Part shown: positions 4,098-54,706 of the stretch, piece after piece
Layout of the letters: each line of letters starts with the position of its first letter
Numbering within the stretch: position 1 is the first letter of the stretch
Source: a virus
Strand: one strand, 5' to 3'
Length of the DNA: 64,000 nucleotides
IMG/VR virus record: IMGVR_UViG_3300045988_132434
Coordinates: 25,638-89,637 of that record
Notes under the pieces: model-generated
What the model saw: the letters and a program-made list of their open reading frames with translations, nothing else
What the model was told of the DNA's origin: nothing
The model's database searches: none
Made by a program: the position numbers and the translations under genes

Positions 4098-4337
4098 TTA
4101 ATATAATCTCGCCCTGCTGTCGCTCATATCGTCCATCGTGCGCACCTTGCGCCATTTCTTGATTCTATTTTTTTGCGCATATACCGTTGACAGGCTGAGA
4201 TACTTACTGCAGGCGAGGTGCATCGGACTGATACTGCCGCCAAACAGCGACGAACTCTGTTCTCTGCAACTACACTTCGCAAGGTCGAAAGAGATGCAGT
4301 TCTCGCACTTGTGGGGGGGGTAGGAAAATATTTGCAT
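4098..4337 (-). CDS. small Cys-rich hypothetical protein (79 aa)
   Basis: Contains CENC...CSC cysteines. The 5' end holds an 8-nt C tract (plus-strand G8 at 4313-4320), and a second frame (4124-4345) is also open across the tract. Confidence 0.3.
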   Translation of the reverse strand: MQIFSYPPHKCENCISFDLAKCSCREQSSSLFGGSISPMHLACSKYLSLSTVYAQKNRIKKWRKVRTMDDMSDSRARLY

Positions 4338-49875: not shown

Positions 49876-50041
49876 TCACAGCTCCACCAATACCTTTATC
49901 TCTCTATCCCCCCCCTCCTTGCGTATGCAGCGTAGGCGATATTCCTTTTGCGGAATATACGCGGCGGCTCTGCTCAAACATGCGGTCGTAGGGCGGAGTC
50001 TGCATCATGCCGAGGACGAGGGTGTGTGTGGTGTCAGTCAT
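49876..50041 (-). CDS. TRD-like mini-ORF T14 (frame broken at a G8 tract)
   Basis: As given: MTDTTHTLVLGMMQTPPYDRMFEQSRRVYSAKGISPTLHTQGGGG, then a stop at 49904. Compare the M.HhaI TRD block RIYSTRGIAITLSAYGGG. With one G fewer the frame continues as DREIKVLVEL to 49876. Confidence 0.55.
49908..49915. repeat. homopolymer C8 (G8 on the coding strand)
   Basis: Counted in the sequence. Out of frame relative to the conserved C-terminal end of T14. Confidence 0.95.
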
Positions 50042-50093
50042 CGCCAGGCTTGATTTCTTCTGTTTTCATTGTTTCTATTGTTTTATGTTTGTT

Positions 50094-50261
50094 TTAACGA
50101 TTCAATAGTGACATTAGTTCCACTGCTTTTTCCTTGTCGGAAAAACCTTTGATGTTTACCCATTTGCCGAAGATACTGCCTCCGACATATTTCTGAACCA
50201 TCCAAACGGTCACGGGTATGCAACCGTTGTAGACTTCCATTGGAACAATTCTTAGCTTCAT
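50094..50261 (-). CDS. small hypothetical protein S2 (55 aa, not TRD-like)
   Basis: MKLRIVPMEVYNGCIPVTVWMVQKYVGG... Below the track cutoff. Confidence 0.4.
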   Translation of the reverse strand: MKLRIVPMEVYNGCIPVTVWMVQKYVGGSIFGKWVNIKGFSDKEKAVELMSLLNR

Positions 50262-50264
50262 ATC

Positions 50265-50450
50265 TTATTCAAATTTATATACTATATGCGGTGTGGTGTT
50301 GCCCAGTCCGTCGCGAGGGTCGGCAATACCTCTCCCGACCATTGTTGTCACGGCATTGGCTATCTGCTTGCGCGGTCGGCTCTTTACGAGACCCTTGCCG
50401 TCCTTGCCGCTGCGTACCCATCCGATGTAATACTTGTCAATCATATTCAT
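50265..50450 (-). CDS. TRD-like mini-ORF T13
   Basis: MNMIDKYYIGWVRSGKDGKGLVKSRPRKQIANAVTTMVGRGIADPRDGLGNTTPHIVYKFE. Confidence 0.45.
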   Translation of the reverse strand: MNMIDKYYIGWVRSGKDGKGLVKSRPRKQIANAVTTMVGRGIADPRDGLGNTTPHIVYKFE

Positions 50451-50454
50451 ACTC

Positions 50455-50628
50455 TTATAGTGGAATGAGGACGTTTGCCACATTTCCCGATATTATCGTG
50501 TATGCTATCCCCCCCACATTGTTTATTACCAATTCGCTCACTCCTCGCTTGTCGGGAGTGTCGCGATAGAAGCGGATGGTGTCGTCATCGCGCCACTTCA
50601 TCCTTATAAGGTCTTTACGGTTACTCAT
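50455..50628 (-). CDS. TRD-like mini-ORF T12 (G7 tract in frame)
   Basis: MSNRKDLIRMKWRDDDTIRFYRDTPDKRGVSELVINNVGGIAYTIISGNVANVLIPL. Confidence 0.45.
   Translation of the reverse strand: MSNRKDLIRMKWRDDDTIRFYRDTPDKRGVSELVINNVGGIAYTIISGNVANVLIPL
50509..50515. repeat. homopolymer C7
   Basis: Encodes V-G-G in T12. In frame. Confidence 0.95.
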
Positions 50629-50763
50629 ATTCTATCAATATTGCGGGTGCTTTGATTTTTGAACTTGTACCTTGTATGATATTGCCTGCTCCCTCCTTGT
50701 GATAATGCGTAAGAATGGTAGCACATACTTGGGGGGCGAATTTAAGATTTGCTGTCTAATCAT
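50621..50763 (-). CDS. TRD-like mini-ORF T11 (own ATG out of frame at a C6 tract)
   Basis: The conserved frame reads KFAPQVCATILTHYHKEGAGNIIQGTSSKIKAPAILIEYE. The ATG at 50763 joins this frame only if the coding-strand C tract is 7 rather than 6. The conserved frame is also contiguous with T10 through one TAG. Confidence 0.5.
50731..50736. repeat. homopolymer G6 (C6 on the coding strand)
   Basis: Counted. Separates the T11 ATG from the conserved frame. Confidence 0.95.
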
Positions 50764-50899
50764 ATTCTATCAATACAATGGTGTGCTGTCCGTGCTCATC
50801 GTAAAGTCCTGCCCATCCGTCGTAGCGTGCGGACAGGGCGGTGGAGTACCCCCGACGTGGGCAGAGGTGCGAGAGGCGTTGCACGAATGGGATTTTCAT
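50756..50899 (-). CDS. TRD-like mini-ORF T10
   Basis: MKIPFVQRLSHLCPRRGYSTALSARYDGWAGLYDEHGQHTIVLIEYD. Confidence 0.5.
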   Translation of the reverse strand: MKIPFVQRLSHLCPRRGYSTALSARYDGWAGLYDEHGQHTIVLIEYD

Positions 50900-51069
50900 T
50901 ACCAACAATCAGGATTAAGATCTCTACCATTAACACCTTCAATATCAATGGCGTTTTTGTAACTGTAAAAACAAACATCTACAATCTCGTCGTCATTGAC
51001 TGTTACTTCCAATTCGCCATGTTCTTTACGCAAAAGCTCAAGGCGGTTTATAAGTTCGTTTATATTCAT
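50899..51069 (-). CDS. small hypothetical protein S1 (56 aa, not TRD-like)
   Basis: MNINELINRLELLRKEHGELEVTVNDDEIVDVCFYSYKNAIDIEGVNGRDLNPDCW. Confidence 0.45.
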   Translation of the reverse strand: MNINELINRLELLRKEHGELEVTVNDDEIVDVCFYSYKNAIDIEGVNGRDLNPDCW

Positions 51070-51078
51070 GTTTTTTCT

Positions 51079-51231
51079 TTATAAATATTCAACATATACC
51101 ATATTATCCTTGCCTACTGACGTAAGCGTATTTGTAATGCCCAACACGTTTATCTCCATGCGCTGAATGTTGGGGCAATCGTCACCATTCAAAGGGCGGC
51201 CACGGAAGGCTGCAATTCTTATTCGTAACAT
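51079..51231 (-). CDS. TRD-like mini-ORF T9
   Basis: MLRIRIAAFRGRPLNGDDCPNIQRMEINVLGITNTLTSVGKDNMVYVEYL. It has the A-x-RGR ... Q-R-x-E ... (T/S)N(T/S)LT(S/T)V-x-KDN pattern that I recall from many phage C5-MTase TRDs. Confidence 0.6.
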   Translation of the reverse strand: MLRIRIAAFRGRPLNGDDCPNIQRMEINVLGITNTLTSVGKDNMVYVEYL

Positions 51232-51395
51232 ATTGCTATCAGATTGTCTGTAGTGAGAAACGTACCTATACATTGCATCATACGTCCCTGCCGCAGATGC
51301 CATTCCTTATCGCGAAAATCGTTAGTGCCAGTTCTGCGACGCACGGCTTTTGCGTGTTCGGTTCGAGCTTCGTGTATCAGATAAATGTTACGCAT
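51219..51395 (-). CDS. TRD-like mini-ORF T8
   Basis: MRNIYLIHEARTEHAKAVRRRTGTNDFRDKEWHLRQGRMMQCIGTFLTTDNLIAICYE. It overlaps T7 and T9 by a few codons. Confidence 0.5.
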   Translation of the reverse strand: MRNIYLIHEARTEHAKAVRRRTGTNDFRDKEWHLRQGRMMQCIGTFLTTDNLIAICYE

Positions 51396-51556
51396 AGGAG
51401 GTTGTCTTTTGTTACTGTGCTGATGGTGTTACTCCACGGCCATGGGCTGGGACGATGCAGTTTGTCTTGGTATTTGCCCCCCCGGTCGCCATGCTCGCGG
51501 CGGTAGGCTTTCGCCTCTTCGGTGCGGTAGTGGACGAGGATGGATTTGTCAATCAT
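51377..51556 (-). CDS. TRD-like mini-ORF T7 (G7 tract in frame)
   Basis: MIDKSILVHYRTEEAKAYRREHGDRGGKYQDKLHRPSPWPWSNTISTVTKDNLLCVTFI. Confidence 0.55.
   Translation of the reverse strand: MIDKSILVHYRTEEAKAYRREHGDRGGKYQDKLHRPSPWPWSNTISTVTKDNLLCVTFI
51477..51483. repeat. homopolymer C7
   Basis: Encodes R-G-G in T7. In frame. Confidence 0.95.
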
Positions 51557-51701
51557 ACTCTATGAGAATTTTTGGTTTATCCACATCGTGACCCTTACCC
51601 CCCCCGGCTATGCACAAGGCTATGCCGTGTGGCGACACGATGATGCCGTTCTGCGAGGGGCTGTAGGAGCCGAGGATGATGGGGCGATGGTTGTTATTCA
51701 T
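51549..51701 (-). CDS. TRD-like mini-ORF T6 (G8 tract in frame)
   Basis: MNNNHRPIILGSYSPSQNGIIVSPHGIALCIAGGGKGHDVDKPKILIEYD. Confidence 0.55.
   Translation of the reverse strand: MNNNHRPIILGSYSPSQNGIIVSPHGIALCIAGGGKGHDVDKPKILIEYD
51598..51605. repeat. homopolymer C8
   Basis: Encodes G-G-G in T6. In frame. Confidence 0.95.
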
Positions 51702-51840
51702 ATATCACGATTACGCCTGTGGCTTTGAAGTTGGCTCCGTCAAGCGAAAGGTCAAGCACATTCGCTGCTCCCATTTTGAAATATTGGGATTTGATAGTGC
51801 GCGATGTGCCGTCGGATTCGGTGTTGAAAGGGAGTGTCAT
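51694..51840 (-). CDS. TRD-like mini-ORF T5
   Basis: MTLPFNTESDGTSRTIKSQYFKMGAANVLDLSLDGANFKATGVIVIYE. Confidence 0.45.
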   Translation of the reverse strand: MTLPFNTESDGTSRTIKSQYFKMGAANVLDLSLDGANFKATGVIVIYE

Positions 51841-52027
51841 AATTCTACTGCTACAAAGAACACGTCGCTGCAATCAGTGCGCGACATGATGGTTATTGCT
51901 ATGCCGTGAAATGCTCCGTTGAAACGTTCTGCGCTGAACATCGAGGCAGGGCAGGTGAGCAACCTACCCCCCCAATCATATCAGCTATGATGCGGATTAC
52001 ACGGTCGGGCGGATTGTCAGTTTTCAT
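51837..52027 (-). CDS. TRD-like mini-ORF T4 (frame broken at a G7 tract)
   Basis: The ATG overlaps the MTase stop (ATGA). As given it reads MKTDNPPDRVIRIIADMIGGVGCSPALP... with a stop at 51899. With one extra G it reads ...MIGGGRLLTCPASMFSAERFNGAFHGIAITIMSRTDCSDVFFVAVEL and ends at 51837 in an ATGA overlap with T5. Confidence 0.5.
51967..51973. repeat. homopolymer C7
   Basis: Out of frame relative to the conserved downstream part of T4. Confidence 0.95.
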
Positions 52028-53364
52028 TCTTTCTTCCTCTCCATATTCTCCTTGAACAATTCCTCGAAACCTTCGCAAGGGAATGTATGATACTCGCTGA
52101 AACTTGCGAAATCACTGTTCAATACGTCTCGCTCGTTCTCTATACAATTTTTCAGTTCGTCCAATTCTCTTTCCCATCCGTTGAGAGCGTTCATGCGTAA
52201 CGTGAGCCACGTCTTGAGGAACATCGCTGCCTCGTGTGTCGGTGGCAGGTCGAATTGAATGAATAGGGCGCTGTCAGAGTCGTTCGCCTTGAGGAACTTA
52301 CTAACGGCATCGTCTTTGAGGAAATAGCGGTCGGCTACTTCTTCTTCCAGTACATCCTCCAGTCGGGTCTTCAGTTCGAAGGGAGCGGGAAATTTATAGT
52401 CGAAGGCCACGTCACGGCGCATGGATATGCAGAACACGCGGTCGCGGTTCTGCGGCACACCGTAGTTCTTGGCGTTAAGGCGAGCCCAACGTGAGACGTA
52501 GCCGAGCGAGGAGAGCTTGTCGAGCCACTTCTGGAAGTCGGGCATGAACTTCTTGCTTACCAATGCCGCCACGTTCTCCTGCAAGAGATATTTCGGGCGC
52601 AACACCTCCACGGCATCTGCCACACGCCAAAGCAGTGCGCTTCGGGTGTTGCTGCCCTCCTGCAAGCCCATCTGCTTGCCAGCTTGCGATATGTCCTGAC
52701 AGGGCGAGGAGTAGGTGAAGAGGTCAACCTCGCGCCCTTCAAGCGAGCGTTTTACCTTGTGCCAGTCAATCTTGGTGATGTCGCCAAGAGCACAGTCGGC
52801 AAACTGCGGAAATACGAGATTGTGCATCTGGCAGGCGTATTTGTCAATGTCGCTCCATCCCTTGCACGTCCATCGGAAGCCGGGATGCCACTCCTTCAGC
52901 ACGTCGGCTGCCATAAGTTGCGAGTCGTAGCCGGAGAACGTGGTCAGAAAAATCTTTTCTTTACCAGAATCGTCTAAGTTCTTCGGCATATCGGGCAGAT
53001 AGTCGCCGATGTCGGTGAAGAGTGAGAGTTGCTTATACTTGCGTTTATTCGGCTGCGGATAGAACAGTGACTCGTAGATGTGAGCCAACACGTCCACCAC
53101 GATTGAGTTTCCTGCCTGCTTGTATTGCTGTGAGGCAGAAATCAGCATCACGTAATGCTTGTTCGGGATCTTGTTAAACAGTTTTTTGAAAAAACATTTG
53201 CCCAAAACGCTCTTTATGCGTTCTTTGGCCGATGCCACCGTCATTTGCATAATGGCAATTACGTTGTCGCGAACGCCCATCAGTCGGAAACACTCTTTTG
53301 GTGTGAGCTTGCGGATGGCATAACTCTTGATGGTACGGTCGGTGAAATTTAGTTTTGTGATCAT
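52024..53364 (-). CDS. cytosine-5 DNA methyltransferase core, circularly permuted (IX-X-I-IV-VI-VIII)
   Basis: Motif order along the protein: RKLTPKECFRLMG (IX, aa 18-30), QAGNSIVV (X, about aa 83), TTFSGYDS (I, about aa 141), SSPCQDIS (IV), LLQENV (VI), VPQNRDRVF (VIII). A helical ~110-aa tail follows, with no recognisable TRD. Confidence 0.85.
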   Translation of the reverse strand: MITKLNFTDRTIKSYAIRKLTPKECFRLMGVRDNVIAIMQMTVASAKERIKSVLGKCFFKKLFNKIPNKHYVMLISASQQYKQAGNSIVVDVLAHIYESLFYPQPNKRKYKQLSLFTDIGDYLPDMPKNLDDSGKEKIFLTTFSGYDSQLMAADVLKEWHPGFRWTCKGWSDIDKYACQMHNLVFPQFADCALGDITKIDWHKVKRSLEGREVDLFTYSSPCQDISQAGKQMGLQEGSNTRSALLWRVADAVEVLRPKYLLQENVAALVSKKFMPDFQKWLDKLSSLGYVSRWARLNAKNYGVPQNRDRVFCISMRRDVAFDYKFPAPFELKTRLEDVLEEEVADRYFLKDDAVSKFLKANDSDSALFIQFDLPPTHEAAMFLKTWLTLRMNALNGWERELDELKNCIENERDVLNSDFASFSEYHTFPCEGFEELFKENMERKKE

Positions 53365-53376
53365 ATTGTCTTTGCT

Positions 53377-53530
53377 TTATTCGTATTCTATCATTACCCC
53401 TGCATCGTTCACGTTAGCTTTCAGACATCGGCTCAGTCCGATTAGGCTTCCATGGTTGAACTCGGCAGTTACTTGCGTAAATACCCCCCCCGACTTTCGG
53501 GATGTGGTAGTCTATTGTGATGTTATTCAT
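53377..53530 (-). CDS. TRD-like mini-ORF T3 (frame broken at a G8 tract)
   Basis: MNNITIDYHIPKVGG is followed, in the conserved frame, by VFTQVTAEFNHGSLIGLSRCLKANVNDAGVMIEYE. This requires G7 rather than G8. The conserved frame is in frame with the MTase ATG across TAA plus 4 codons. Confidence 0.5.
53484..53491. repeat. homopolymer C8
   Basis: Out of frame relative to the conserved end of T3. Confidence 0.95.
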
Positions 53531-53654
53531 ATTCTTCAATCAGAAATACATTATATTGCCATAAACTTGTTGAAATGGTCGGGCAAACGTCAGTGCCTAA
53601 TCTACCTCCGTCGTTGTTGCCACGAGGGTATTGGTAGAGGTCGTGGTTAGTCAT
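53523..53654 (-). CDS. TRD-like mini-ORF T2
   Basis: MTNHDLYQYPRGNNDGGRLGTDVCPTISTSLWQYNVFLIEEYE. It has the PRG-N-x-GG ... PT(I/L)(S/T)(T/S)S ... N block. Confidence 0.55.
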   Translation of the reverse strand: MTNHDLYQYPRGNNDGGRLGTDVCPTISTSLWQYNVFLIEEYE

Positions 53655-53656
53655 AT

Positions 53657-53950
53657 TCAATCCTTTTCAATCTCCATTTCCCATTTCTTTTCATCGTGAG
53701 AGGAATAGACGGTATAGGGACAATTTTCTTTGTCGAGGATATTCTGTGCTTCGTCCAATATATCTCTTGTATAGAAACACCGACGCATAAGATACGCCAA
53801 AGCCTCAAACTGACCACGAGTAAGAAAGACCTCCTGCTCGCCGCAAGTAATACCTACATTATCAGTAATGGTAGAATAGAACAGCTTTACGTCCTCTTCC
53901 TTTCCTGTGTCCTCGTTCTTTACGATTATCTTTTCTGTATTGTAACTCAT
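53657..53950 (-). CDS. hypothetical protein (97 aa)
   Basis: Clean ORF. Confidence 0.45.
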   Translation of the reverse strand: MSYNTEKIIVKNEDTGKEEDVKLFYSTITDNVGITCGEQEVFLTRGQFEALAYLMRRCFYTRDILDEAQNILDKENCPYTVYSSHDEKKWEMEIEKD

Positions 53951-53991
53951 AATTTATTTCTCTTTTCATAAATCTTATTGTTTTTCACATT

Positions 53992-54363
53992 CTATTCAGA
54001 TACTCTTTTCACTGTCTTTAAATTACAGTTGGGAAAATCCATAACGTGTTTGAACTCATACGACACAGCATCTTCATAATGCGTTACATCACCATCAGTC
54101 TTTATTACGTTGATATAATCTTTATTCAAAGATGAAACAACCTGCTTGACCTCCGAGGCTCTGTGTAAATCGCATCCACCACCTTTGGTAAATACACACA
54201 AGAAATACCCATCACAATTCTGATAGTCTATTTCTCTATCATTTTTCACCTCTTTCTTCATTTTTCGTGCTGTCCACCAAATGTAAGTCATAAACAAAAT
54301 TGTTAAGACAAACGCAAACAACATTGATGCGAGCCAGAGTCGCCAATCATTCGTTATAATCAT
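53992..54363 (-). CDS. membrane-anchored hypothetical protein
   Basis: N-terminal TM segment, WRLWLASMLFAFVLTILFMTYIWW. Confidence 0.45.
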   Translation of the reverse strand: MIITNDWRLWLASMLFAFVLTILFMTYIWWTARKMKKEVKNDREIDYQNCDGYFLCVFTKGGGCDLHRASEVKQVVSSLNKDYINVIKTDGDVTHYEDAVSYEFKHVMDFPNCNLKTVKRVSE

Positions 54364-54378
54364 AATTTATTTCTCCTT

Positions 54379-54706
54379 TTATAATTCAACAAACACGCAC
54401 ACCCCTCCGCTTGCTGCGGTCAGAGCGTTCACCAACTTACCCCCCCCCAACCGTCCTGCTGCGCCTTAGAGCCGAGGAAGGATAGCTAAGGTCGGCGGCT
54501 CCAGGACAAGGGCAGTCGGCATAGCCCTGCTCGGTGGCTTGGCGTATGCGGAGGAACGTCTCGCCCTTGCGGTCCACAATCTGAAGGAAGGGTCGGTCAG
54601 AGGTGGAGTAGATACGGTAGAGCGAACCGTCGGGATAGCGCCCATACAGCTTGCCGTCCTTGGTGATGGTGCCACGCTTGTAGCGGGGCGTGTAAGGGTT
54701 ATTCAT
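54379..54706 (-). CDS. TRD-like mini-ORF T1 (frame broken at a G9 tract)
   Basis: MNNPYTPRYKRGTITKDGKLYGRYPDGSLYRIYSTSDRPFLQIVDRKGETFLRIRQATEQGYADCPCPGAADLSYPSSALRRSRTVGGG, then a stop at 54437. With G8 it continues as KLVNALTAASGGVCVFVEL to 54379. It has the RIR-x-AT-x-x-GY ... S-x-x-RR-x-R-V/T-G pattern. Confidence 0.55.
54440..54448. repeat. homopolymer C9
   Basis: The longest tract. As given it truncates T1. Confidence 0.95.

What the first reader, a model, noticed from the sequence alone, without database searches (positions are those of the whole stretch)
49908..54448. Nine G/C homopolymer tracts (6-9 nt) cluster in the TRD array, and five break the conserved frames
**Tracts counted in the sequence (length on the coding strand)**

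| Position | Length | Mini-ORF | State |
|---|---|---|---|
| 49908-15 | 8 | T14 | needs -1 nt |
| 50509-15 | 7 | T12 | in frame |
| 50731-36 | 6 | T11 | needs +1 nt |
| 51477-83 | 7 | T7 | in frame |
| 51598-605 | 8 | T6 | in frame |
| 51967-73 | 7 | T4 | needs +1 nt |
| 53484-91 | 8 | T3 | needs -1 nt |
| 54440-48 | 9 | T1 | needs -1 nt |

- A ninth, shorter run (5 nt) lies at 50849-53 in T10.
- In every broken case, the frame that restores TRD-like sequence also restores the conserved module ending (...IEYE, ...VEL) and is reached by a single-nucleotide change in the tract.
- Most tracts encode the conserved Gly-Gly(-Gly) of the TRD, always with GGG codons, in a genome that is otherwise not GC-rich.
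- Outside this 4.6-kb region I found only one comparable tract in 64 kb (G8 at 4313-4320).
- The required corrections go in both directions, +1 and -1. That pattern is not what a one-sided homopolymer sequencing bias would give.

**Hypotheses**
- Slipped-strand phase variation, giving a phage phasevarion that switches individual TRDs ON or OFF.
- Transcriptional or ribosomal slippage that makes both truncated and full-length modules.
Basis: partly seen in the sequence, partly recalled or inferred. Interest (0 to 1): 0.85.

Follow-up and report, generated by a model that had tools for sequence, protein, structure and literature searches.

The report
Switchable poly-G tracts in phage methylase modules
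An uncultured gut phage carries about 14 mini-genes for DNA-recognition modules around one cytosine-methylase core, and most contain a run of G (or C) whose length differs between otherwise identical copies of the phage, so each module can probably be switched on or off by replication slippage.

Summary
Eight G/C runs of 6-9 nt lie in 49908-54448. Seven are at least 7 nt, against 0.125 expected (P about 1e-10). The rest of the window has one, about the chance number. Five runs break the frame, and a 1-nt change restores each module's conserved ending.

The breaks are not assembly errors or dead genes:
- Independent assemblies of the same phage (99.9-100% identical) differ only in tract length at T1 (G7/G8/G9), T3 (G8/G10) and T11 (C6/C8).
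- In near-identical genome pairs, 12 of 36 G/C runs differ in length, against 0 of 11 A/T runs.
- About 197 homologous tracts in 80 related phages spread evenly over the three frames: 69 ON, 70 needing -1, 58 needing +1.
- The sequence after the tracts still evolves as coding DNA in the ON frame.
- GGG is the rarest Gly codon in 42 long genes of the window (6%), and none of their 60 Gly-Gly pairs is GGG-GGG.

The core gene is a circularly permuted C5-methylase with no recognition domain of its own.

Best reading: slipped-strand contingency loci that switch individual recognition modules of a split, multi-specific anti-restriction methylase. This is a new variant of a known kind. Switching within one population, and the methylation itself, remain untested.

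The parts
54379..54706 (-). T1 module (long TRD type). OFF in the window; the ORF stops at 54437. G8 gives 108 aa ending VFVEL.
   Evidence: The G8 ON allele is present in L081 and L083. The exact 108-aa protein is on 3 public contigs. phrog_8411 matches T1 and then the core N-terminus in order.
54440..54448 (-). Poly-G tract of T1. G9 here; G7, G8 and G9 occur in same-strain assemblies.
53523..53654 (-). T2 module, intact and without a tract. Orthologues elsewhere carry G6-G8 (FAM17).
53377..53530 (-). T3 module, immediately upstream of the core. OFF (G8). G7 or G10 restores ...VMIEYE.
   Evidence: The G10 ON allele is in L081 and L083.
53484..53491 (-). Poly-G tract of T3 (G8).
52024..53364 (-). 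Circularly permuted C5-cytosine methyltransferase core. Motifs IX-X come first, then I-VIII. It has no TRD of its own and no tract in this window.
   Evidence: PF00145, E = 6e-50. Motifs were read in the translation. The reordered chimera aligns with M.HhaI and M.MpeI.
51837..52027 (-). T4 module. OFF (G7). G8 gives 63 aa ending FVAVEL, and the restored stop overlaps the T5 start (ATGA).
   Evidence: The exact ON protein is on 2 contigs.
51967..51973 (-). Poly-G tract of T4 (G7). It is G7 in all six assemblies of this strain.
51694..51840 (-). T5 module, intact, without a tract.
51549..51701 (-). T6 module, ON. The G8 tract at 51598-51605 encodes GGG.
   Evidence: Family FAM6 has lengths 6, 7, 8 and 10.
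51377..51556 (-). T7 module, ON. G7 tract at 51477-51483.
   Evidence: Family FAM13 has lengths 6-8.
51219..51395 (-). T8 module, intact, without a tract.
51079..51231 (-). T9 module, intact. The tract is replaced by VLGI; orthologues carry G6-G8 (FAM5).
50756..50899 (-). T10 module, intact. Its short G5 run (50849-50853) is one Gly shorter than the G8 ON allele of orthologues (FAM2).
50621..50763 (-). T11 module. OFF. The tract at 50731-50736 is C6 on the coding strand and encodes Pro-Pro. C7 restores ...AILIEYE.
   Evidence: C8 is found in L081.
50455..50628 (-). T12 module, in frame. G7 tract at 50509-50515. It ends LIPL, then a TAA stop followed in frame by EYEYD.
   Evidence: Family FAM3 has lengths 6-9.
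50265..50444 (-). T13 module, intact. Its tract is interrupted (GRG); orthologues carry G6/G7 (FAM25).
49876..50041 (-). T14 module (HhaI-like TRD). OFF: the G8 tract at 49908-49915 is followed directly by a stop. G7 gives 54 aa ending KVLVEL.
   Evidence: The exact ON protein is on 19 contigs, the G8 form on 7 and the G9 form on 3.

Best explanation
The tracts are hypermutable contingency loci. During phage DNA replication the polymerase slips on runs of 6-11 G (or C) inside small genes, adding or removing a base.

Each small gene encodes a free-standing target recognition domain (TRD) of 40-110 aa. In one tract register the gene is read through to a conserved C-terminal strand (...IEYE/IEYD/VEL). 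In the other two registers the protein is truncated or gets a wrong tail.

The intact mini-proteins are proposed to dock onto the single, circularly permuted C5-methyltransferase core. That core has motifs IX-X followed by I-VIII and no TRD of its own. Each module that is ON would then add one methylation specificity.

Independent switching of about eight modules would give phage populations with many combinations of cytosine methylation. This would be bet-hedging against the varied restriction systems of their hosts: classical ones blocked by methylation and methyl-dependent ones triggered by it.

**Shown:**
- the tracts and their enrichment;
- length polymorphism at the DNA level;
- the frame consequences;
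- coding constraint on the ON frame;
- the permuted, TRD-less core;
- TRD homology of T14.

**Inferred:** assembly of TRDs with the core in trans, the specificities, the adaptive role, and switching within a single population.
For: 1. **Same-strain assemblies.** Six assemblies (the window plus L081-L085) have an identical core protein and 0-1 mismatches over 3.5-9.3 kb. They differ only at tracts: T1 G7/G8/G9, T3 G8/G10, T11 C6/C8. L081 and L083 carry ON alleles of T1 and T3.
2. **Other near-identical pairs.** L035 and L036 have 0 substitutions in 13.3 kb but 4 tract-length differences. L014 and L015 have 1 substitution and 2 tract differences. Across such pairs, 12 of 36 G/C runs of at least 7 nt differ, against 0 of 11 A/T runs.
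3. **Public protein records.** ON and both OFF forms of T14 and T1, and the ON form of T4, exist as exact proteins in public assemblies.
4. **Location in relatives.** In 67 related loci, G/C runs of at least 7 nt pile up in the 4-9 kb bins around the core. Nearly all are G on the coding strand.
5. **Frame states.** Of about 197 classifiable tracts, 69 are ON, 70 need -1 and 58 need +1.
6. **Coding constraint.** Variable sites after the tract fall 60/41/172 on codon positions 1/2/3 of the ON frame. In 8 of the 10 families scored, nearly all alleles have an intact ON-frame tail.
7. **Codon usage.** GGG is 6.1% of Gly codons, and 0 of 60 Gly-Gly pairs elsewhere are GGG-GGG.
8. **Stable control tract.** A G7 inside the core gene is invariant in 9 genomes (FAM8).
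9. **TRD identity.** A chimera of core motifs I-VIII, T14 and core motifs IX-X aligns in one piece with M.HhaI and M.MpeI through the TRD. The tract falls on the GGG after the conserved T-L dipeptide.
10. **Precedents.** Simple-repeat contingency loci have been shown experimentally in phage T2, in its DNA-glucosylation gene agt (PMC12633550). Hypermutable polyG tracts are reported in Campylobacter phages (title seen).
Against: - No read-level data. Heterogeneity within a population and reversibility are not shown.
- The even 1/3 spread over frames fits rapid neutral drift of tract length as well as it fits adaptive switching.
- T4 and T14 are OFF in every assembly of this strain that covers them (all six for T4; the window and three others for T14).
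- Only T14 has demonstrable similarity to a solved TRD. T1 did not align.
- Isolated modules have no Pfam match. In PHROGs only T1 has a weak one (phrog_8411, E = 3.8e-4); the other three modules tested have none.
- Docking in trans is untested, and the AlphaFold model of a TRD-core fusion was uninformative (pLDDT 31).
- The sequencing platforms of the public assemblies were not verified.
Confidence: 0.75

Rival explanations
1. Homopolymer sequencing or assembly error. The true genome has all frames intact, and the breaks are artefacts of calling G runs.
For: Homopolymers are the classic site of indel errors. One relative has an implausible G22 at a contig end (L057). The sequencing platforms of the public assemblies were not checked.
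Against: - A/T runs of 7-8 nt inside long genes are all in frame, and 0 of 11 vary between near-identical genomes, against 12 of 36 G/C runs.
- A G7 in the core gene is constant in 9 genomes.
- Differences of 2 nt occur (G8 vs G10), and two separately deposited assemblies share them (L081 and L083).
- L081 has 121x coverage (contig name).
- Error cannot explain why the tracts exist only in this array, nor why they use the rarest Gly codon.
Confidence: 0.05
2. Decaying pseudogenes. The modules are relics of duplicated TRDs, inactivated by frameshifts and no longer used.
For: About two thirds of the tract-bearing modules are out of frame in consensus genomes. T4 and T14 are OFF in all assemblies of this strain.
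Against: - The post-tract sequence shows a strong third-position bias in the ON frame (60/41/172). In 8 of the 10 families scored, nearly all alleles lack stops there.
- Every break sits exactly at the tract and is repaired by 1 nt.
- ON alleles with the identical protein sequence exist in other samples.
Confidence: 0.05
3. Recoding. RNA polymerase or the ribosome slips on the G run, so full-length modules are made from any DNA register, and the DNA-level frame does not set expression.
For: Runs of 8-9 identical bases can cause transcriptional slippage (general knowledge, best documented for A/T runs). The frames are spread evenly, as if the register did not matter.
Against: - Known recoding sites keep a fixed length and offset across homologues. 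Here lengths are 6-11 nt in all three registers, and both +1 and -1 corrections would be needed.
- Some lineages replaced or interrupted the tract while keeping the protein (T2, T9, T10, T13).
- G/C runs are poorer slippage sites than A/T runs (my own knowledge).
Confidence: 0.1
4. Real but non-adaptive hypermutation. The phage polymerase slips on any G/C run, and the modules are redundant enough that on/off noise is simply tolerated.
For: - Intergenic G/C tracts also vary: L035/L036 at 11171 and L086-L088 at 8634.
- Frame states look like an unbiased random walk.
Against: The tracts are concentrated about 50-fold in the modules. They are built from an avoided codon in more than 30 unrelated module families. 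That pattern needs selection to keep the tracts, not mere tolerance.
Confidence: 0.1

Closest known systems
Contingency loci in T-even phages (Gomez, Barrick and Waters 2025 preprint, PMC12633550)
   Same: Homopolymer repeats in phage genes slip during replication and give reversible frameshifts. The worked example, agt, is a DNA-modification gene whose on/off state trades one restriction system against another.
   Different: There the repeats are single A-runs in ordinary full-length genes scattered over the genome. Here G-runs cluster in an array of mini-genes that each supply one specificity to a shared methylase core, so the output is combinatorial. The T2 work is experimental; this is comparative only.
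Hypermutable polyG tracts of Campylobacter phages (Sorensen et al. 2021, Cell Rep 35:109214; title seen, details from my own knowledge)
   Same: Several poly-G tracts in one phage genome vary in length and create phenotypic subpopulations.
   Different: Those tracts sit in receptor-binding and tail genes and change host recognition, not DNA methylation.
Phase-variable bacterial methyltransferases: Type III mod phasevarions and Type I hsdS repeats (established knowledge; reviews listed)
   Same: A simple repeat inside a methylase or specificity gene switches methylation on or off, or changes specificity.
   Different: Those are cellular genes, usually with one repeat per gene and N6-adenine enzymes, and they control gene expression. 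Here the genome is viral, the enzyme is a C5-cytosine one, there are many independent switches, and the likely role is anti-restriction.
Multispecific C5-methyltransferases of Bacillus phages SPbeta, phi3T, rho11 and H2 (established knowledge)
   Same: One catalytic framework serves several TRDs, so a phage methylates several motifs and escapes several restriction enzymes.
   Different: In those enzymes the TRDs lie in tandem inside one polypeptide and are always expressed. Here each TRD is a separate mini-gene with its own switch, and the core is permuted.
Natural permuted and split C5-methyltransferases: M.BssHII type H, and M.AquI alpha/beta (PMC5944983)
   Same: Motifs IX-X precede I-VIII. 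C5-methylases tolerate being cut near the TRD and reassemble from fragments.
   Different: Type H enzymes keep the TRD at their N-terminus, and M.AquI has two fixed subunits. Here the TRD is detached, multiplied about 14-fold and individually switchable.

Membership tests
Simple-repeat contingency locus (phase variation by slipped-strand mispairing) | Homopolymer inside an ORF, so that a 1-nt change shifts the frame | tested here: met
Simple-repeat contingency locus (phase variation by slipped-strand mispairing) | Repeat over-represented relative to base composition and codon usage | tested here: met
   Seven runs of at least 7 nt against 0.125 expected. GGG is 6% of Gly codons and 0 of 60 Gly-Gly pairs are GGG-GGG.
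Simple-repeat contingency locus (phase variation by slipped-strand mispairing) | Tract length differs between otherwise identical genomes | tested here: met
Simple-repeat contingency locus (phase variation by slipped-strand mispairing) | OFF alleles keep an intact, constrained downstream frame (reversibility) | tested here: met
Simple-repeat contingency locus (phase variation by slipped-strand mispairing) | High-frequency reversible switching measured within a clonal population | not testable with these tools
   Needs raw reads or cultured phage.
Phasevarion (regulon controlled by a phase-variable methylase) | Methylation state changes expression of a set of genes | not testable with these tools
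   No expression or methylome data. Nothing in the sequence points to it.
Programmed frameshifting or transcriptional slippage | Slippery site of conserved length with a fixed frame offset across homologues | tested here: not met
   Lengths of 6-11 nt in all three registers within single families.
C5-cytosine DNA methyltransferase (PF00145) | Catalytic and SAM-binding motifs present: I (FSG), IV (PCQ), VI (ENV), VIII (QNRDR), IX and X (GNS) | tested here: met
C5-cytosine DNA methyltransferase (PF00145) | Canonical order I to X, with the TRD between VIII and IX in the same chain | tested here: not met
   IX-X precede I-VIII. TRD-like sequence is found only in separate mini-ORFs.
Multispecific phage C5-methyltransferase (SPbeta type) | Several TRDs in tandem within one polypeptide | tested here: not met
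   Each module has its own start and stop codon.
Type H circularly permuted C5-methyltransferase (M.BssHII type) | A single chain ordered TRD-IX-X-I...VIII | tested here: not met
   The gene order T3 then core mimics it, but a stop and 13 nt separate them.

The most novel reading that the evidence does not exclude
The array is a viral 'specificity switchboard'. A TRD-less C5-methylase core is programmed by whichever free-standing TRD mini-proteins are in frame, and poly-G slippage resets each one independently. That gives up to 2^8 methylation phasotypes in this genome.

Progeny DNA is methylated by the parent's set of modules while carrying its own, possibly different, tract states. Protection would therefore be inherited with a one-generation lag. 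The switching would balance escape from methylation-sensitive restriction against attack by methyl-dependent restriction.

This would be the first repeat-driven combinatorial epigenetic counter-defence in a virus, and a natural plug-in system for C5-methylase specificity.
Probability: 0.45. Interest if true: 0.9.

Novelty: new variant of a known kind. Interest (0 to 1): 0.78.

Why it matters
Phase variation by simple repeats is a classic bacterial strategy and has only recently been shown in phages. This case would extend it to the specificity of a DNA-modifying enzyme. A virus could reshuffle which motifs it methylates, one module at a time, without recombination.

It gives a concrete, testable model for how gut phages cope with the very diverse restriction systems of their hosts.

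It also has a practical consequence. Gene callers and virome catalogues will routinely annotate these modules as broken or miss them. The window's own deposited proteins are the truncated forms.

Free-standing 50-aa TRDs that program a common core would also interest methylase engineers.

Tried and rejected
- **Megablast of the region against GenBank phages** found nothing.
- **tblastn with the core protein** hit Bacillus phages and Dulem virus 40. These turned out to be adjacent canonical methylase genes, not permuted cores.
- **The phage is not crAss-like.** Its portal is only distantly similar to Polaribacter phage Leef_1.
- **Isolated T14 and T1 peptides** gave no meaningful PDB sequence hits. 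The T1 chimera did not align through its TRD.
- **AlphaFold2 on a T14-core fusion**, run without an alignment, gave pLDDT 31 and was discarded.
- **Recombination at the tracts.** I tested whether tracts are junctions that shuffle the N- and C-halves of modules. The discordant flank clusters were explained by short modules whose flanks reach into neighbouring genes, and by one 5'-truncated module. There is no support for the idea.
- **First tblastn frame classifier.** It was contaminated by ORFs sharing the same frameshift. A family-based classifier replaced it.
- **Literature searches** for this system found no description of it.

Full report
**What is in the sequence**

Seven read as G on the coding (minus) strand and encode Gly-Gly(-Gly). 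The run at 50731-36 is C6 on the coding strand and encodes Pro-Pro.

A three-frame translation of the minus strand shows the region's layout. One 446-aa gene (52024-53364) is flanked by about 14 mini-ORFs of 40-110 aa. Most end in ...IEYE...IEYD or ...VEL and overlap the next start codon by 4 or 8 nt.

Five tracts break these ORFs. In each case one added or removed base restores the conserved ending. For T4 and T11 it also restores the stop/start overlap with the next module.

**More than chance**

Under a first-order Markov model of the window, 0.125 runs of at least 7 nt are expected in the array. Seven are present (P = 9e-11). The other 59 kb hold one, against 1.6 expected.

The amino-acid sequence does not explain the runs. 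In 42 long genes of the window, GGG is the rarest glycine codon (53 of 874, 6.1%). None of their 60 Gly-Gly pairs is written GGG-GGG.

A/T runs of 7-8 nt inside long genes are all in frame. The assembly is therefore not generally unreliable at homopolymers.

**What the genes are**

The 446-aa protein is a C5-cytosine methyltransferase (PF00145, E = 6e-50). Its motifs are circularly permuted. Motif IX (RKLTPKECFRLMG) and motif X (GNSIVVDV) come first, followed by I (TFSGYDS), IV (SPCQ), VI (ENV) and VIII (QNRDR). It has no target recognition domain (TRD).

I joined core motifs I-VIII, the repaired T14 and core motifs IX-X in the canonical order. The product aligns in a single stretch with M.HhaI and M.MpeI, running through their TRDs. 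T14's ...RVYSAKGISPTLHTQGGG lies on HhaI's ...RIYSTRGIAITLSAYGGG. The T14 tract therefore encodes the Gly loop that follows the conserved T-L dipeptide.

PHROG family 8411 matches T1 and then the core N-terminus in that order.

Natural permuted C5-methylases keep the TRD at their N-terminus, and split ones reassemble from fragments cut near the TRD (PMC5944983). Here the TRD appears to have been detached and multiplied. That the mini-proteins work in trans with the core is an inference. It was not tested.

**Same phage, different tract lengths**

An exact look-up of the core protein returned five independent public contigs: Hadza gut, RAMP, and Logan SRR1930145. They are 99.94-100% identical to the window, with 0-1 mismatches over 3.5-9.3 kb. 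Every indel is a tract.

| Tract | States seen among the six assemblies |
|---|---|
| T1 | G9 in the window and L085; G8 (ON) in L081 and L083; G7 in L082 |
| T3 | G8 in the window, L082, L084 and L085; G10 (ON) in L081 and L083 |
| T11 | C6 in the window, L082 and L084; C8 in L081 |
| T4, T6, T7, T12, T14 | the same in all that cover them |

Among IMG/VR relatives:
- L035 and L036 have no substitution in 13.3 kb but four tract-length differences.
- L014 and L015 have one substitution and two tract differences.

Pooled over near-identical pairs, 12 of 36 G/C runs of at least 7 nt differ in length, against 0 of 11 A/T runs.

Exact-sequence look-ups show that ON and OFF forms coexist in public data:
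- T14: ON form on 19 contigs, G8 form on 7, G9 form on 3.
- T1: ON form on 3 contigs, G9 on 2, G7 on 1.
- T4: ON form on 2 contigs.

The truncated forms carry GenBank accessions DAI84068, DAI84080 and DAI84085 ('MAG TPA: Caudoviricetes sp.'). That record is probably the window's source.

**The whole lineage does this**

The core protein finds 130 loci in IMG/VR, mostly contigs of 50-100 kb. Eighty were kept.

- Nearly all carry G runs of 6-11 nt on the coding strand.
- In 67 full-length loci, the runs of at least 7 nt concentrate in the 4-9 kb bins around the core.
- The mean is 3.2 tracts per genome. The window has 8, the maximum seen.

I grouped tracts by flanking homology, which gave more than 30 module families. 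Within a family, lengths take every register. FAM0, for example, has G6 x7, G7 x8, G8 x16, G10 and G11.

About 197 tracts were classified by which register restores the family's C-terminal sequence. The result was 69 ON, 70 needing -1 and 58 needing +1, essentially one third each.

The sequence after the tract nevertheless evolves as protein-coding DNA in the ON frame. Variable sites fall 60/41/172 on codon positions 1/2/3. In most families every allele, ON or OFF, has an intact ON-frame tail. This rules out decayed pseudogenes. It implies that OFF states are short-lived relative to the divergence between strains.

A G7 inside the core gene is invariant in nine genomes (FAM8). G7 is therefore not intrinsically miscalled, and it stays fixed in an indispensable gene.

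Four window modules without a tract (T2, T9, T10, T13) have tract-bearing orthologues elsewhere. Tracts are evidently gained, interrupted or contracted over time.

**Mechanism and rivals**

The best-supported reading is slipped-strand mispairing at contingency tracts that switch individual TRD mini-genes.

- **Recoding** by the ribosome or RNA polymerase would predict a conserved length and offset. That is not seen. It may still add some leakiness at G8-G9.
- **Artefact** is contradicted by the A/T and core-gene controls. It is also contradicted by 2-nt differences shared between two separately deposited assemblies, and by the existence of the tracts themselves.
- **Non-adaptive hypermutation** is harder to dismiss. 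Intergenic G/C tracts vary too, and the frame spread looks neutral. Against it, the roughly 50-fold concentration of tracts in the modules, written with an avoided codon across unrelated families, argues that mutability itself is maintained.

The functional logic is inferred. Each ON module would add a methylated motif, which protects against methylation-sensitive restriction but exposes the DNA to methyl-dependent restriction. Modules may also compete for the single core.

**Relation to known systems**

- Repeat-driven contingency loci were shown experimentally in phage T2. They include its DNA-glucosylation gene agt, which trades TgvAB against McrBC restriction (PMC12633550).
- PolyG tracts are reported in Campylobacter phages.
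- Phase-variable methylases are well known in bacteria.
- Multispecific Bacillus-phage C5-methylases carry several TRDs in one chain (my own knowledge).

I found no description of an array of separately encoded, individually switchable TRDs around a permuted C5 core. I therefore rate this as a new variant of a known kind.

**Limits**

- No reads were available, so heterogeneity within a sample and switching rates are unknown.
- Only T14 has demonstrable similarity to a solved TRD.
- The structural test failed for lack of an alignment.
- The host is unknown.

Noticed in passing
window 4313-4320 (ORF 4098-4337, minus strand): The only other long G/C run in the window (C8 on the coding strand) sits at codons 6-8 (Y-P-P) of a small Cys-rich ORF. 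Its homologue in L064/L069 is 42% identical (E = 1e-20) and carries C8 or C9 at the same place, about 600 nt upstream of the methylase core there. This is probably another switchable gene.
   Followed up: partly
L059:6352; L062, L063, L065, L067, L069:6062: In some relatives the core methylase gene itself carries a poly-C tract. One clade has it at codons 21-23, inside motif IX (LTPPEC). The consensus is frameshifted in L059, L062, L065 and L067 and in frame in L063 and L069. This looks like a possible master on/off switch, which the window lacks (it has LTPKEC).
   Followed up: partly
L086, L087:8634, L088:6162; L035:11171, L036:11173: Intergenic poly-C tracts also vary between close relatives. 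One is C9, C12 or C11 upstream of the 558-aa portal-like gene. Another is C7 or C8 about 50 nt upstream of a 167-aa gene. They could alter promoter or leader spacing.
   Followed up: no
window 50444-50460: Module T12 ends ...VLIPL at a TAA stop that is followed in frame by EYEYD and a second stop. It looks as if a sense codon before the usual IEYD-type ending became a stop. The same LIPL ending is found in other genomes (FAM3).
   Followed up: no
L057:66-87: A run of 22 G lies at the T3-family tract, 65 nt from the contig start. It is either an assembly artefact at a contig end or an extreme expansion.
   Followed up: no
window 53992-54363, 53657-53950, 50899-51069, 50094-50261 (minus strand): Four small ORFs that do not look like TRDs are interspersed in the array: a 123-aa predicted membrane protein and proteins of 97, 56 and 55 aa. 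Their role is unknown.
   Followed up: no
L026, L027:7777: In the T6-family module of these genomes the run reads GGGGGGAGG. An A interrupts the tract while the frame is kept, which is an apparent 'locked ON' allele.
   Followed up: no
window 49876-54706: The deposited proteins for this genome are the truncated OFF forms of T14, T4 and T1 (DAI84068, DAI84080, DAI84085; MAG TPA Caudoviricetes sp.). Several modules are not called at all by gene finders in sister contigs.
   Followed up: partly
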